Shown one piece after another: positions 52,901 through 58,900 of a stretch of 64,000 bases of DNA. How positions within the stretch are numbered: the stretch's first letter is position 1; each line of letters opens with the position of its first letter. The position numbers are program-made. The stretch is taken from NCBI RefSeq assembly GCF_003019035.1, contig NZ_CP027447.1; one strand, written 5' to 3'. The DNA is from Escherichia coli (lineage in GTDB: Bacteria > Pseudomonadota > Gammaproteobacteria > Enterobacterales > Enterobacteriaceae).

Positions 52901-55900
52901 CTCGGTTTTTTGTCGGCCTTTGTGTTGGCGAAAGAGGTCACGGTGTTGACCACATCCTGGCAAACGCCGGATCAGAGCTGGAAATACCACTCTACCGACG
53001 GGCAAAAATATACCGTTACGCCGCATCAGTCCTCGGAAACGGGTACGCAGGTGATTCTGACGCTCAAAGAAGAGTACAGCCATCTGGCGAGTAACAATTT
53101 GCTGAACCGCGTTCTTTCCCGCTACTGTATATTGCTGCACGAACCGGTCTATGTCGGCGATGCCAGCGAGCCGGTAAATAAACTTCAACCACCGTGGCGT
53201 GAAGTTGCCCCCGAAGGCGTAACCATGCACCGCGCGCTGGTACAGCGTAAAAATCTCGCCTTTGCCGCCCAGTTTGAATCCTCCTTCGAACCGATTTGCA
53301 CCATTCCGGTGGTGCCCGTGGGGATGAGCGACGCGGTTGGGATTTTATGGATTCAGGATGGCGCAACCTACGGCACCAGCGATAACCGCAACCTGTCGCT
53401 GTTTTTGCGCGGTATGTTACTGGATGATGAAGCGCGTGAGTTGTTACCTCCCTGGGCCGGATTTATTGGCGGCGTGATTGAGTCATCGAAACTAACGCCT
53501 ACGGCGAGCCGGGAAGATCTCCAGCGGGACGAAACCTGGGTTGCGGTGCAGGAGGCGTTAAAAGAGGCGCTGATTTCTGGTTTGTCCGATCTCGCACAAA
53601 ATCAGCCAGAAATCTGGCGGCGTGTATTAATGCGCCACAACGAAGCGTTGCTCGGTGCGGCATTATGTGATGACCGTCTGTTTGATTTGCTCAAAGATCG
53701 CTTGCAGGTGCCAACGTCAAAAGGGGCGTTGCTGGCGAAGGATTTACGCGTTAATAACAGCATTCATATTCTGTTAAGCCGCGACGGCGGTTTTGAAGAG
53801 ATGTTGTTCCACATTCTGCAACGGCCCGTTGCCCGTGGCGATCGCTATGCCGTCGTGCCATTTTTACGTCGCTGGGCGCTGTTATATCACTGCCGGATTG
53901 TCGAAGTCGGTACGCAAACAGGTAATGAGCAGTTGTTCAGCCTGGCGGAATTACCCGAAGAGCAGGTAGCTTATCTGGAAGAGCATCTCTGCGATGGCGA
54001 GCAATTAATTATCTCCCGCTTCGAACCCGCCGTTTTACCGTTAGTGGTTACGCCAGACCGCGAAGCAGAATTAAAACAAATTCTCGAACAGGATGACGCA
54101 GATAAACGCATCAGCACCGCAGCGTTAATGCTGGCGCGGCAATTTACTTCACAAATCCAAAAAACGAAAACCTCAAGTTTATACATCAACCTTAATAACC
54201 CTTGCATCATGCAACTGGTGACGGCATTACAACACCAGCAACAGCCCGCAGCGGCATTACGCTTATTAAAATCGCTGAAAGTGATTTTGTGCTCCAGCGG
54301 TAATAAAGAACAGCAGTGGGATTTACACCAGGCACTGGAAGATTTTACTCAGGTTATTCCTGTCTTAATTAATCAAGGAAAATAAAATGGATATATGGGA
54401 GTGGTATCACAAATATACTAAGGAGTTACGCGATGCCGGGCAGGAGTATATTCCGCAACTTATCGATGATTATTCGGAAGGCGTTATGCACCTGCAAATG
54501 GAAAAGTGCGATTCGCTGTTACCTGAAGTAAAAGCACTTACCCAGGTGGCAAAAAATCCGTGGCTGGAAATATTTATTGGTCACTGGGAAATGCGTCATC
54601 GCCTGACTAACTATGAAGAAGGTGAAAAGGTGCTGCCAGACGTGGTAGCGCTGTTTGAAAAAGCGCACCGGGAAGAGACAAAAGATTGCCCACAATCTAT
54701 CTGCGTTACCCAGGATTTATCCGCCTGCTACGAAAATATTGATGCACCTGGCTGGGCGAATGAACGTATGGCGGTATGTGAAGAAACCATCGCGCGGATT
54801 GATCCGACCTGGAGCTGTTTTCAGTGTTTGTCCACTGAATATGCCAGTGCACTGATAGATTCCAAAAGAATAGAGGAGGCACTGGCTTATCTGGATCGAC
54901 AAATCGACGCAGTTAAAGCAGCCGGGGAAGATGATATTGATGCATTACTTTATACTCGTGCCGATATTCTGATTGAACTTCAGCGTTATGATGAAGCACG
55001 CATACTGATTGATGAGCTGACAGAAGCCAATGATTACTGGGGCCGCGACCGCATTAGTAATCACCTCAAAAAACTGTACATCATGGCGTTATGCGGGCAG
55101 GACGAAGAAGTCTGGGAGGAATTACCGCGTTGGTCAGATCTGACTCCCCATTCATGGGGGTCATGGCTGAAAATCATTACTGTGTTACTTCCCCGTCATC
55201 CACAAAGAAACAACTGGCAACTGGCGCGCATCATCCAAAAAATGCTGGAGCACCGCTCGCAGGCCGGAGCGCACCGCAAAGTGGTTGATCTGGCGAAACT
55301 GCAAATTACCCTGGCGCTGGAGCGTGAATCCGTCTGGGTTGCCAAAATAGCGATGAAACTGGCCCAGCGACACATGCCAAAATTACGCGTGTTACTGGGG
55401 GTTGATCGTGAGTTTCTCGAACTGAGTGAAAAAATCGCCGCCAAAGAAGCAGAGTTGCTTGCTCGTCCGGTTGTAGAAGTACCTGAAAATAGCGATGAAG
55501 AAACGCAGCCAGATCCAGAAAAAGACGTCGAAACATTCCGCCGCGCTTACCTGAACGCGCCAGATGATGCGGAATTGCTGGGCAAACTGGTCAATGCGTT
55601 AAACGCCTGTAATGCGATTGATGAGTCGATTGAACTTCTGCAACGCTACGTCGAAAGCCACATCCAGGAAGATAATGGTCTTTGCTTCGATCTGTTGGAT
55701 TTATTGCTCCACCGTGACGATCTGCAAACCATTGAGCACCTGGCGAAGCAGTATGAACAGGCGGGGCTGCTACATATGGCCTTGTGGTTCCGTGCGCGAG
55801 TGATCAACCAACAGGAAGACTGGAGTGAACTCGAGTCGATTGGGCACCAGTTGCTGCAAAACGAAAAAGGGCGTGAGTGGATCGGCGTTTATCGCATGTG

Positions 55901-58900
55901 CTCCTGGGCAGCACAAAAACAGGAAGCCTGGGATCGACAGCTGGATTATTTACAACAATTGCAGCAACTGATGATTAGCCGTGAAGAAGATATTCGTAAT
56001 ATCCAGTGGGATATCATGGCGACCGCCAGCATCCTGCAACAATGGGATTTGGTTCGTGCTATTGCAGCTGAACTGGAAATCGAACTTACGGAAGGTGAAG
56101 GTTTTATCGACGAAAAATGGGGACTGCTAAACATTCGCTTCCGGGAAAATTATGAATACCGCTATTACTATGCTCAACGTATTGGGCCGGTAACAGCAAG
56201 GATCATTGAGCCAACTTACCGGACCGATTATCCGCAACATGTTGATGAAGTTGTGGTATTCGATGCGGAAATATTGAACACCCAACCAGAGGATGAGGAA
56301 GAACGGAAGAATTTCACGCCACTTTATGCCTGCCTGCAAACCATTATCCCGACTGAGTACGGCGAGTCCTGGTTCTGCGAAGGTGTCATGCCTGGTGAAG
56401 AACAGTTTAATGCCTTCCGTGAGGCGCTCCGTGAACGAAACTGGTACTACTGGAGCAACAGTAACGAGGACTATACGTTAACGGACAGCCAGCAGGGAGA
56501 AGATGCACAGCCGCTGCCCGCGTTCTACTTTGTTATCAGCGCGCCGCGTTCAGTTTCTAAAGGTGATATCGATAAGACCTTGCACGAATTGACCGCTGAC
56601 TGGGAACATCCGTTGTGCTGGTGGCGTCTTGCCAAAGAAGCCGGGGCGAATGAAGAGAAGCATGCTGCTATTTCTGAACGTTATGGAATGTAGGTGAGAG
56701 TTTATATCCTGCGCCAGTGGTAGAGCGGGTAATTAAAATCACTTCCTGCGATTTATATTTTAAGTCGCAGGAATTATTCGGAGTGTGAATGATTTCGGTT
56801 TGTTTATAAGCAAAATGTGTATAGTGACGGATCATTTTTTCATTTAAAATATTATCTCTCTTATCTAAATATTTATAAGGCAATTAAATGAAAAGGAATT
56901 TATTATCTTCCGCTATTATAGTCGCCATCATGGCCCTCGGTCTCACGGGTTGTGATGATAAAAAAGCCGAAACAGAAACGCCCCCGCCTGCCAATAGTCA
57001 ACCTGCCGCACCAGCTCCTGAAGCGAAACCTGCTGAAGCTCCCGTTGCAAAAGCAGAAGTTAAACCTGAAACGCCTGCCCAACCGGTGGTCGATGAACAA
57101 GCGGTTTTCGACGAAAAAATGGATGTCTATATCAAGTGCTACAACAAGTTACAGATCCCGGTACAGCGCAGTCTGGCGCGTTATGCTGACTGGCTGAAAG
57201 ATTTTAAACAGGGGCCTACCGGTAAAGAGAGTACTGTTTATGGCATCTACGGCATTAGTGAATCCAGCCTCGCTGAGTGTGAAAAAGGCGTAAAAAGTGC
57301 TGTGGCGTTAACGCCTGCGCTGCAACCTATTGATGGCGTAGCGGTGAGTTATATCGATGCTGCCGTGGCGTTGGGTAATACCATTAACGAAATGGATAAA
57401 TATTACACCCAGGAAAATTATAAAGACGATGCGTTTGCGAAAGGGAAAACGCTGCACCAGACATTCTTAAAAAATCTGGAAGCCTTTGAACCTGTAGCCG
57501 AATCTTATCATGCGGCGATCCAGGAAATTAATGATAAGCGTCAGCTTGCGGAACTGAAAAATATTGAAGAAAGAGAAGGGAAAACATTCCACTACTATTC
57601 TCTGGCAGTCATGATTTCAGCGAAACAAATTAATAACCTGATATCGCAAGAGAAGTTTGATGTTGATGCGGCAATGAAGAAAGTGTCTGAACTGGAAACG
57701 CTGGTGGCGCAGGCCAAAGAAGCGGATAAAGGCGGCATGAATTTCTCGTTTATTAATTCGGCAGGCCAGTATCAACTCGAGGCTAAAAAATACGTTCGCC
57801 GCATCAGAGATAAAGTCCCGTACTCTGACTGGGATAAAGAGCAACTTCAGGACGCAAACTCAAGCTGGATGGTCGAAGACTCTTTCCCGAGAGCATTACG
57901 CGAGTACAACGAAATGGTCGATGACTATAATCGCCTGCGTTAAACGTTTTTGATGATAAATGCAGTGTCGGATGCGGCGCATCCGACACAGTTCACCCCT
58001 TGTGAAGTAACTCCATAAATGCCTCATATCCTGTTAACCCGGCAATAACCTCTGCCGGATGCTGACACAATACGCTTGCCAGATAGCTAAATATTTTTAG
58101 CTCATGACGCGCATCGGCGGCGGCGCAGGCGATCAAAACATGGTTAATGACTTCGTTATTCACCTCAACTGATTGGGCGAGGGTAATAAAAAATCCACGA
58201 AAACGTCGCTCCTGTTCGCTCCAGCAATGTGGGATGGCGAGGCGATTAACAATCAGGTTTTCACCTTCGCCTTCGCGGGCGATGATCCGTTGCGCTTCAT
58301 CGGCGGTAATATGGTGTTGTGCGACTAATTGAGCACAAATTTGCCGGGTAATATGTTGCCAGCTTTCACCGCGTACATTCGAATAATGAAAACTTCCGGG
58401 GGCAGAGAAAAAACGCTCCGGTTGCCGGCGAATAAACGCCGTCGCCAGAAAATGTTTTATTTGTTCGATACCGGCAGCCGTAATAATGTTTTTTACGGTG
58501 ATGCAATTATTGACCGCGTCATCCAGTAAATAATGGCTGTTATTAATGATCAATAACGGCTCAATCTCTTCGCGAATGGCAACCAGTTCGCTTACGCTGC
58601 GGGCAATAATCACCCGACAATTCAGGACATCGCGCTCAATGGCGAGCTGATTAATAGTAGCAATCGCGTTCTGATCAGAGAGCAAAATGATCGGCTGGCG
58701 TTCGTTTTGATGCCGTTCCAGCGCACAGGCAAAATACAAACCAATCAGATCGCTGTCGAAAAGGGGAATATCGAGTTGTTCACGCAGTAGCGTAATAAAG
58801 TGCAGACTCATATCAAAGGCCGCAGGCCAGGCGGCTTTCAGGTTATTCATGCTGCTTTGGCGGTGCTCTCCAATCCACACCGGCGCGGCAAGGCAACGTA

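What the first reader, a model, noticed from the sequence alone, without database searches (positions are those of the whole stretch)
54387..56693. Partner protein: tight translational coupling and an N-terminal cysteine cluster with no assignable domain
Seen in sequence: the 768-aa ORF starts at ATG 54387, one nucleotide after the TAA stop of the ATPase gene, with its AAGGAA RBS inside the upstream coding region, implying co-translation and fixed stoichiometry. The N-terminal third contains clustered cysteines (..CPQSICVTQDLSACYENID.. and ..WSCFQCLSTEY..) that could be a metal-binding site; the rest is predicted helical with acidic patches (e.g. EVPENSDEETQPDPEKD, NTQPEDEEERKNF). Inference: this could be the specificity or effector subunit regulated by the ATPase, but the function is unknown.
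Basis: inference. Interest (0 to 1): 0.6.

Follow-up and report, generated by a model that had tools for sequence, protein, structure and literature searches.

The report
Conserved cysteine-bearing partner of bacterial Hsp90 paralogue
This gene encodes an uncharacterised 768-residue helical-repeat protein with four almost invariant cysteines. Across many bacterial phyla it is almost always encoded directly after a second, non-HtpG Hsp90-type ATPase. That makes it a candidate for a dedicated Hsp90 partner in bacteria, which are thought to lack such partners.

Summary
The window is E. coli. ORF2 (54387-56693) starts 1 nt after the stop of ORF1, and its AAGGAA ribosome-binding site lies inside ORF1.

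ORF1 is not a generic ATPase. It is a divergent Hsp90-family protein with intact ATPase motifs and the middle-domain catalytic Arg.

ORF2 belongs to a large family of about 765-residue proteins with one fixed architecture:
- an N-terminal helical module with no Pfam or PDB match;
- a TPR-like superhelix;
- a family-specific alpha/beta C-terminal domain.

C101, C106, C144 and C147 are 98-100% conserved in 232 members. The few sequences that lack cysteines have each lost two or three together. C114 is not invariant.

The two genes are adjacent on the same strand in 75 of 76 informative loci found from ORF2, and in 5 of 5 found from ORF1. These loci span Proteobacteria, Myxococcota, Acidobacteria, Chloroflexi and Actinobacteria. 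No third gene is conserved with them.

The pair shows no defence hallmarks: no PADLOC match for ORF2 (ORF1 gives only weak GHKL-domain hits), essentially absent from plasmids and phages, and under purifying selection. It lies between fdhD and yiiG in 253 of 5426 E. coli genomes.

Best reading: an obligate partner or adaptor of a specialised Hsp90, with a probable metal or redox cysteine site. Physical interaction, metal binding and the clients are untested.

The parts
52230..52273 (+). Variant 3' end of fdhD (ATT CAT AAT TAA) and a hairpin with a T-run at 52247-52273. This is the left junction of the two-gene block.
   Evidence: Sequence. Terminator-like hit. Comparison with the K-12 empty site.
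52274..52549 (+). AT-rich upstream region of the operon. No promoter could be assigned.
   Evidence: Sequence. The sigma-70 scan gave no excess over shuffles and no plus-strand site in this region. GC drops to 0.45-0.48 here.
52550..54385 (+). ORF1, 611 aa: a divergent Hsp90-family (GHKL) ATPase. It retains E38, N42, D45, D78 and G114xxGxG119 in the N-domain and R321 (SRE motif) in the middle domain.
   Evidence: NCBIfam 'HSP90 family protein' PRK14083 at 1e-85, full length but below the curated cutoff; HtpG at 4e-58. Pfam HATPase_c_3 and HSP90. Alignment to TRAP1 and HtpG structures. Orthologue alignment. Residue coordinates.
54375..54380 (+). AAGGAA ribosome-binding site of ORF2, inside the last codons of ORF1.
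54387..56693 (+). ORF2, 768 aa: the family-specific partner protein. RefSeq annotates it as 'hypothetical protein' and UniRef as 'tetratricopeptide repeat protein'.
54387..54866 (+). ORF2 N-terminal helical module (aa 1-160), the most conserved part of the protein. It holds 30 of the 51 alignment columns conserved at 90% or more.
   Evidence: AF2 model. Conservation by domain. No Pfam or PDB sequence match.
54687..54704 (+). C101-P-Q-S-I-C106 motif at the N-terminal cap of helix 102-135.
   Evidence: C101 and P102 are 100% conserved, Q103 98.7% and C106 99.1% in 232 sequences. The same position was found in independently sampled loci. Secondary structure.
54816..54827 (+). C144-F-Q-C147 motif at the N-terminal cap of helix 143-158.
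   Evidence: C144 is 98.7% and C147 98.3% conserved. Co-loss pattern. Secondary structure.
54867..56072 (+). TPR-like alpha-superhelix (aa 161-562), interrupted by a disordered acidic linker (aa 361-376, nt 55467-55514).
56073..56690 (+). Family-specific alpha/beta C-terminal domain (aa 563-768), including the moderately conserved PEDEEER motif (aa 634-640).
56698..56771 (+). Right junction: a decayed copy of the last ~35 nt of fdhD (56698-56732), followed by the hairpin (56745-56771) that sits directly after fdhD in K-12.
   Evidence: BLAST of the K-12 empty site against the window. 22 of 35 identities at the position contiguous with the alignment.

Best explanation
ORF2 is the obligate partner subunit of a specialised, non-HtpG Hsp90-family ATPase (ORF1). 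The two are made from one operon and act as a two-component chaperone-like machine.

Shown:
- ORF1 keeps every sequence feature needed for Hsp90-type ATP hydrolysis.
- ORF2 has a fixed three-part architecture: a conserved N-terminal cysteine module, a TPR-like superhelix, and a family-specific alpha/beta domain.
- The two genes are inherited together across phyla with nothing else conserved around them.
- Both are under purifying selection.

Inferred:
- ORF2 binds the ORF1 dimer, most likely through its most conserved part, the N-terminal module.
- The TPR superhelix holds a peptide or protein ligand (a client or a regulator).
- ORF2 thereby gives the ATPase its specificity or regulation, as TPR co-chaperones do for eukaryotic Hsp90.
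- The four invariant cysteines (CX4C plus CX2C, each at a helix N-cap) most likely chelate a metal. Zn is the default guess. The site would be structural or a redox or metal switch.
For: Adjacency:
- Same-strand adjacency in 75 of 76 loci with enough upstream DNA, found from ORF2. The taxa include Escherichia, Xanthomonas, Stenotrophomonas, Pseudomonas, Betaproteobacteria, Holophaga, a Chloroflexi MAG and Streptomyces.
- In the reverse direction, 5 of 5 ORF1-clade genes sampled independently have an ORF2-family gene directly downstream, with CPQSxC at residue 101 and CxxC at 144.
- No third conserved neighbour.
- Stop-to-start spacing is mostly -4 to 50 nt.

ORF1 chemistry:
- Catalytic Glu, Asn, Asp, GxxGxG and the middle-domain SRE arginine are aligned to TRAP1 and HtpG and invariant among four orthologues.

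ORF2 conservation:
- The four cysteines are 98-100% conserved, and the 4 exceptional sequences have each lost two or three of them together.
- The N-core (residues 95-160) shows 59% median identity, against 22-33% elsewhere.
- TPR-like fold.

Evolution:
- dN/dS is 0.03 for ORF1 and 0.10 for ORF2, and every ORF2 domain lies at 0.10-0.18.
- Two loci carry tandem ORF2 paralogues behind one Hsp90 gene, as expected of an adaptor.

P. aeruginosa:
- PA1069 is described as operonic with an Hsp90 gene and is detected as protein (PMC4053335).
- That PA1069 is the ORF2 orthologue is inferred from the bra and flg gene context of L006.
Against:
- ORF1 has no C-terminal EEVD-type tail, and its extreme C-terminus is not conserved. 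The canonical TPR-clamp docking mode is therefore not available.
- I could not read coordinates, so I did not test whether the two cysteine pairs are close in space. DSSP draws residues 102-135 as one long helix. If that helix is straight, it would separate the pairs, so a single Cys4 site is not demonstrated.
- One genome (Thorsellia) has ORF2 without an adjacent ORF1.
- PA1069 mRNA is about 4-fold lower at 46 C than at 37 C (PMC4957987), so this is not a classical heat-shock operon.
- About 95% of E. coli genomes lack the pair, so it is dispensable.
Confidence: 0.5

Rival explanations
1. Private-chaperone model. ORF2 is not a helper but the dedicated client of ORF1. ORF2 carries the real, unknown activity, perhaps as a metalloprotein. 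The Hsp90 paralogue exists only to fold it, load its cofactor or remodel it.
For: The same obligate adjacency fits this model equally well. ORF2 is large and multi-domain, and its most conserved element is a putative cofactor site. ORF1 evolves more slowly than ORF2 (dN/dS 0.03 against 0.10). Identity to the E. coli proteins is 48-62% for ORF1 and 30-44% for ORF2.
Against: No catalytic fold or known cofactor-binding motif was found in ORF2. A TPR superhelix is typically a binding scaffold. Tandem duplication of ORF2 but not ORF1 fits adaptors at least as well as clients.
Confidence: 0.2
2. Conflict or anti-phage system. A GHKL ATPase works with a TPR sensor that recognises a phage product and triggers growth arrest or another response.
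Against: - No PADLOC model matches ORF2, and ORF1 gives only weak GHKL-domain hits.
- No nuclease, TIR, protease, pore or other effector domain was found.
- The family is essentially absent from plasmids (3 of 72,556 records; two of these are 0.85 and 11.9 Mb long, a size I judge chromosomal) and from phages (1 record, a Salmonella contig).
- The site holds either this pair or nothing, so it is not a variable-cargo hotspot.
- The same fdhD-adjacent position is shared by several Escherichia species, Superficieibacter and Salmonella.
- Synteny is stable within Xanthomonas and within Stenotrophomonas.
- Purifying selection acts on all domains, with dS similar to the flanking genes.
Confidence: 0.1
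3. A different reading of the cysteines only. They are two redox-active dithiol pairs (C101/C106 and C144/C147) forming reversible disulfides, that is, a thiol switch rather than a metal site.
For: Each pair sits at the N-terminal cap of a helix. That is the classical position of reactive CxxC thiols (established knowledge of thioredoxin-fold proteins). If helix 102-135 is straight, the pairs may be too far apart to form one site.
Against: CX4C is not a usual redox-pair spacing. The cysteines are lost together across the two pairs in 2 of the 4 exceptional sequences, which suggests one functional unit. The protein has no thioredoxin-like fold.
Confidence: 0.25

Closest known systems
Eukaryotic Hsp90 TPR co-chaperones (Hop/Sti1, PP5, CHIP, Sgt1, Tah1; from established knowledge)
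   Same: A TPR-containing protein dedicated to an Hsp90-family ATPase, with extra domains attached to the TPR scaffold. A specificity or regulatory role is the natural reading.
   Different: ORF1 has no EEVD-type C-terminal tail, so the defining carboxylate-clamp docking cannot apply. ORF2 has no sequence homology to any of these proteins. ORF2 is much larger, with about 400 residues of repeats. The pair is operon-encoded one-to-one.
CHORD-domain Hsp90 partners (RAR1, Chp1, melusin; recalled from memory as a lead, not tested)
   Same: Cysteine-rich, metal-binding modules that contact Hsp90 and regulate its cycle. In plants they act together with the TPR protein SGT1.
   Different: CHORD domains carry a Cys/His-rich pattern that binds two Zn ions. 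ORF2 has only a CX4C plus CX2C pattern inside an all-helical module. No homology was detected.
E. coli HtpG (hsp90A) and bacterial Hsp90 in general
   Same: ORF1 shares the N-terminal ATPase and middle domains and the catalytic residues.
   Different: ORF1 scores higher against the 'HSP90 family protein' model PRK14083 than against HtpG, and it falls below both curated cutoffs. Its C-terminal 250 residues do not align to HtpG structures. HtpG has no dedicated operon partner. Bacterial hsp90B and hsp90C paralogues were set aside in the one genome-wide study (PMC3708813).
Redox-regulated zinc centres in stress proteins (Hsp33 CXC...CXXC; ZAS anti-sigma HxxxCxxC; from established knowledge)
   Same: Four conserved thiol ligands in a cytosolic stress-related protein. 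This gives a plausible switch mechanism.
   Different: The motif spacing and fold differ. Metal binding by ORF2 is untested.
GHKL-containing defence proteins (paraMORC/Shedu type VcSduA, PMC12137116)
   Same: A GHKL ATPase coupled to a second functional module.
   Different: Those proteins carry a PD-(D/E)xK nuclease and lie in mobile islands. This pair has no effector domain. It also has a true Hsp90 middle domain with the catalytic arginine.
MalT domain III, and the RRNPP (AimR, Rap, NprR) and APC/C TPR superhelices
   Different: Sequence identity is only 5-12%. This is generic repeat-fold similarity. None of these proteins has the cysteine module or the C-terminal domain.

Membership tests
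Hsp90 family (for ORF1, the partner gene) | GHKL/Bergerat ATP-binding motifs: ExxxNxxD, DxGxG, GxxGxG | tested here: met
   RELVQNGHD (E38, N42, D45), DTGAG (D78) and GMFGLG (114-119) align to TRAP1 and HtpG and are invariant in four orthologues.
Hsp90 family (for ORF1, the partner gene) | Hsp90 middle domain with the catalytic-loop arginine | tested here: met
   Pfam HSP90 PF00183 over residues 274-353. 'TASREDLQ' aligns with TRAP1 'NLSRELLQ', and R321 is invariant.
Hsp90 family (for ORF1, the partner gene) | Passes a curated family model (HtpG or PRK14083 equivalog) | tested here: not met
   288.5 bits against a cutoff of 455 for PRK14083, and 197.5 against 371 for HtpG. ORF1 is a divergent sister clade, not a member of either equivalog.
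TPR / alpha-solenoid repeat proteins (ORF2 residues 161-562) | Tandem helix-turn-helix repeats forming a superhelix, with similarity to TPR profiles | tested here: met
Hsp90 TPR co-chaperone (eukaryotic type) | The TPR carboxylate clamp binds an acidic (M)EEVD tail at the Hsp90 C-terminus | tested here: not met
   ORF1 ends in ...VLINQGK. Orthologue termini are not conserved and are not acidic.
Hsp90 TPR co-chaperone (eukaryotic type) | Direct binding to Hsp90 and modulation of its ATPase or client loading | not testable with these tools
   Only genomic co-occurrence is available.
Cys4 metal-binding site | Four conserved thiol ligands | tested here: met
   C101, C106, C144 and C147 are 98-100% conserved, and they are lost together in the rare exceptions.
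Cys4 metal-binding site | The four sulfur atoms lie within coordination distance and a metal is present | not testable with these tools
   Model coordinates are not exposed. The secondary structure alone is ambiguous. A covariation attempt failed.
Known anti-phage defence systems | Match to a defence-system protein model | tested here: not met
   PADLOC gives no hit for ORF2. ORF1 gives only weak GHKL-domain hits to TmtA and to a type II restriction enzyme.
Known anti-phage defence systems | Mobile or island-like context, variable cargo, diversifying selection | tested here: not met

The most novel reading that the evidence does not exclude
This may be the first dedicated bacterial Hsp90 co-chaperone system. 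A metal- or redox-gated TPR adaptor docks on a specialised Hsp90 paralogue by a mode unrelated to the eukaryotic EEVD clamp, and recruits a defined client set. On this reading Hsp90-with-adaptor machines arose independently in bacteria and are present in P. aeruginosa, Xanthomonas, Stenotrophomonas and some E. coli.
Probability: 0.3. Interest if true: 0.75.

Novelty: new variant of a known kind. Interest (0 to 1): 0.58.

Why it matters
Bacterial Hsp90 is generally described as working without co-chaperones, and the non-HtpG Hsp90 paralogues have no assigned function. The only genome-wide co-evolution study set them aside (PMC3708813).

This work defines an obligately paired, widely distributed partner family. 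It has a nearly invariant cysteine site and two domains absent from Pfam and the PDB. That gives a concrete, genetically tractable system for asking two questions: what these paralogues do, and whether adaptor-guided Hsp90 action exists in bacteria. The system is natural in about 5% of E. coli and in P. aeruginosa, Xanthomonas and Stenotrophomonas, which include clinically and agriculturally relevant organisms.

If the cysteines form a redox or metal switch, the pair would also join the small set of stress-gated chaperone systems such as Hsp33.

Tried and rejected
Sequence and profile searches:
- NCBIfam and PADLOC scans of ORF2 found nothing.
- Pfam on the full protein gave only weak TPR hits.
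- Pfam and PDB profile searches of the N-terminal (A4) and C-terminal (A2) domains found nothing.

Structure searches:
- Foldseek on AFDB50 with the C-terminal domain returned only the same family.

Other analyses:
- Mean-field DCA on 232 sequences, run to test whether the two cysteine pairs are in contact, was dominated by gap artefacts and was discarded.
- tblastn against plasmids and phages gave 3 and 1 records. I judge these to be chromosomal or misfiled contigs.

Literature:
- Searches covered Hsp90 with TPR and defence, HtpG paralogues, PA1068/PA1069, 'Hsp90xo', GHKL with TPR and phage defence, and hsp90B/hsp90C. None found a functional study of this pair.

Readings considered and rejected:
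- A MORC/paraMORC-type GHKL: rejected because the Hsp90 middle domain and its arginine are present.
- A mobile island: rejected because there is no integrase, the same site is used across genera, and dS is similar to the flanking genes.
- A periplasmic Sel1/Hcp-like disulfide protein: rejected because I saw no N-terminal signal peptide in the sequence (read by eye, no predictor run).

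
Full report
**Observation**

The window is E. coli. The region 52400-57000 is 100% identical to strain SMS-3-5 and others, where the genes are annotated 'ATP-binding protein' and 'hypothetical protein'.

ORF2 runs from 54387 to 56693 and is 768 aa. ORF1 (52550-54385) ends with TAA at 54383-54385, one base before the ORF2 ATG. AAGGAA lies at 54375-54380. Seven of the 14 cysteines lie in the first 147 residues.

**What the upstream gene is**

ORF1 is a divergent Hsp90-family protein, not a generic ATPase.
- It aligns over its full length to the NCBIfam 'HSP90 family protein' model PRK14083 (1e-85, 288 bits). 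That is below the curated cutoff of 455.
- It aligns to HtpG over the N and middle domains.
- Pfam finds HATPase_c_3 and HSP90.
- Against solved structures it aligns to TRAP1, HtpG, Grp94 and Hsp90 over residues 10-359. The alignment covers the ATP-site motifs and the middle-domain 'SRE' catalytic arginine, R321.
- These residues are invariant in orthologues from a myxobacterium-like contig, Xanthomonas and P. aeruginosa.
- One source names the protein 'Hsp90xo'.

E. coli also has canonical htpG (established knowledge), so ORF1 is an extra paralogue.

**What ORF2 is**

ORF2 has no NCBIfam or PADLOC match and only sub-threshold Pfam TPR hits.

Homology searches found 107 clusters at 90% identity. 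An exhaustive search found 356 clusters at 50% identity with E below 1e-30. Almost all are 730-800 residues long and align end to end, so this is one fixed architecture.

An AlphaFold2 model built on a 28-sequence alignment is confident (pLDDT 91.7). It shows:
- helices from residue 1 to 562;
- a disordered acidic linker at 361-376;
- an alpha/beta domain at about 575-768.

**The cysteines**

In 232 full-length family members, conservation is as follows:

| Residue | Conservation |
|---|---|
| C101 | 100% |
| P102 | 100% |
| Q103 | 98.7% |
| C106 | 99.1% |
| C144 | 98.7% |
| C147 | 98.3% |
| C114 | 84% |
| C41, C131 | not conserved |

H66, W59, D110, D119, E133 and E151 are also nearly invariant.

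Only four sequences lack any of the four conserved cysteines, and each has lost two or three together. That hints at one functional unit.

Residues 95-160 are the most conserved segment of the protein. Median identity to the query is 59% there, against 22-33% in the other domains.

Each cysteine pair sits at the N-terminal cap of a helix. I could not read model coordinates, so I did not test whether the two pairs meet in space. DSSP draws residues 102-135 as one long helix, which leaves this open. A covariation attempt failed.

**Gene context**

In three first loci (a metagenome contig, Xanthomonas, P. aeruginosa) an Hsp90-family gene lies directly upstream, and nothing else is shared.

A scan of one genome per species found relatives in 211 species.
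- Of the 80 loci kept, together with the 7 fetched earlier, 76 have enough upstream DNA to judge. In 75 of those, an ORF1 orthologue lies immediately upstream on the same strand.
- The exception is Thorsellia.
- The taxa include Enterobacterales, Xanthomonadales, Pseudomonas, Betaproteobacteria, Holophaga, a Chloroflexi MAG and Streptomyces.
- Clustering of flanking ORFs found no third conserved gene, only synteny within a genus.

I then sampled from the ORF1 side. All 5 ORF1-clade genes examined have an ORF2-family gene directly downstream, with CPQSxC at residue 101 and CxxC at 144. Two of these loci carry two tandem ORF2 paralogues.

Stop-to-start spacing is -4 to 50 nt in nearly all loci. 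The 1-nt spacing is typical of Enterobacterales and some others.

**Evolutionary behaviour**

In E. coli the pair is a clean presence/absence polymorphism between fdhD and yiiG. It is present in 253 of 5426 complete genomes, and the rest have the two flanking genes adjacent.

The same position next to fdhD is used in E. whittamii, unnamed Escherichia species, Superficieibacter and a Salmonella Infantis contig. dS of both genes is similar to that of the flanking genes. Together these indicate old, mostly vertical inheritance with frequent loss.

dN/dS is 0.03 for ORF1 and 0.10 for ORF2. Every ORF2 domain lies at 0.10-0.18, so there is no sign of diversifying selection.

The family is essentially absent from plasmid and phage collections. 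The few hits include records of 0.85 and 11.9 Mb and a Salmonella contig, which I judge to be chromosomal or misfiled.

**Literature**

I found no functional study of this pair.

The P. aeruginosa locus L006 is followed by five branched-chain amino-acid ABC transporter genes and then flgBCD. From my knowledge of PAO1 gene order, this identifies the pair as PA1068/PA1069. This is an inference.

What the papers say about PA1069:
- It is a 'hypothetical protein' that 'appears operonic' with an Hsp90 gene and is detected in proteomes (PMC4053335).
- Its mRNA is about 4-fold lower at 46 C than at 37 C (PMC4957987).
- It is among the AmrZ-activated, ChIP-enriched genes (PMC3946381).
- It is listed as uncharacterised protein Q9I4Q5 in a co-IP table (PMC13411936).

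Bacterial Hsp90 paralogue groups B and C are known (PMC1525184). They were explicitly left out of the one co-evolution study (PMC3708813).

**Interpretation**

The best-supported reading is that ORF2 is the obligate partner of a specialised Hsp90 paralogue.

Shown:
- reciprocal cross-phylum adjacency;
- intact Hsp90 catalytic features in ORF1;
- a fixed three-part ORF2 architecture with a TPR-like scaffold;
- near-invariance of the four cysteines;
- purifying selection.

Inferred:
- physical binding between the two proteins;
- an adaptor or regulatory role for ORF2;
- a metal or redox function for the cysteines.

The eukaryotic docking mode is excluded, because ORF1 has no EEVD-type tail.

Rivals:
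- ORF2 is the private client of ORF1. This is equally compatible with the adjacency.
- The pair is a defence system. This is disfavoured by all the context and selection tests and by the lack of any effector domain.
- For the cysteines alone, two dithiol redox pairs rather than one metal site.

**Verdict**

The 'partner' idea is strongly supported, and the 'effector' idea is not.

The feature is an uncharacterised, widely conserved Hsp90-paralogue/TPR-partner module. It is a new variant of a known kind of system, and its mechanism remains inferred.

Noticed in passing
window 56698-56771 and 52230-52273: Directly after the ORF2 stop lies a decayed copy (22 of 35 nt) of the 3' end of K-12 fdhD. 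It is followed by the hairpin that sits right after fdhD in K-12. The functional fdhD in the window has a different last few codons and its own terminator. TAATTAAA occurs at both junctions. The two-gene block looks as if it was inserted into, or later deleted from, the extreme 3' end of fdhD.
   Followed up: partly
L090:6857-11297 and L092:7499-11803: Two loci (a Bradymonadia MAG and a metagenome contig) carry two tandem ORF2-family paralogues after a single Hsp90-paralogue gene. Both copies examined in L090 keep the cysteine motifs. The start of the second copy in L092 is clearly of the same family.
   Followed up: partly
L092:1-1467: In one metagenome locus, GrpE and Hsp70 (DnaK-like) genes lie about 3.5 kb upstream of the pair on the opposite strand. 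This was seen only once and may be coincidence.
   Followed up: no
protein cluster of P0017: The 90%-identity cluster of the P. aeruginosa ORF2 orthologue also lists 611-636-residue 'ATP-binding protein' entries, which look like ORF1 orthologues. This could reflect fused gene calls spanning both genes, or a clustering artefact.
   Followed up: no
window 55515-56072 (ORF2 aa 377-562): Synonymous divergence from two unnamed Escherichia species is about 0.16 in this segment, against 0.35-0.49 in the rest of ORF2. This suggests a recombination mosaic within the gene.
   Followed up: no
L070:1-7061 (Thorsellia anophelis): This is the only locus with ample upstream DNA where the ORF2 homologue has no Hsp90-paralogue gene in front. 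By my reading, the upstream gene resembles a nicotinamide phosphoribosyltransferase; no search was run on it. Whether ORF1 lies elsewhere in that genome was not checked.
   Followed up: partly
window 48160-51210 (- strand): The formate dehydrogenase-O alpha subunit appears as two ORFs (804 aa and 195 aa) in the mechanical ORF list, but as one 3051-nt CDS in RefSeq. This is consistent with the known in-frame TGA selenocysteine codon.
   Followed up: no
window 52550-54385, compared with other Escherichia species: ORF1 is 98-99% identical at the protein level across E. coli, E. fergusonii, E. marmotae, E. ruysiae and unnamed Escherichia. ORF2 is about 89-91% identical to the three other-Escherichia loci examined (E. 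whittamii and two unnamed species). The ATPase is under markedly tighter constraint than its partner.
   Followed up: partly
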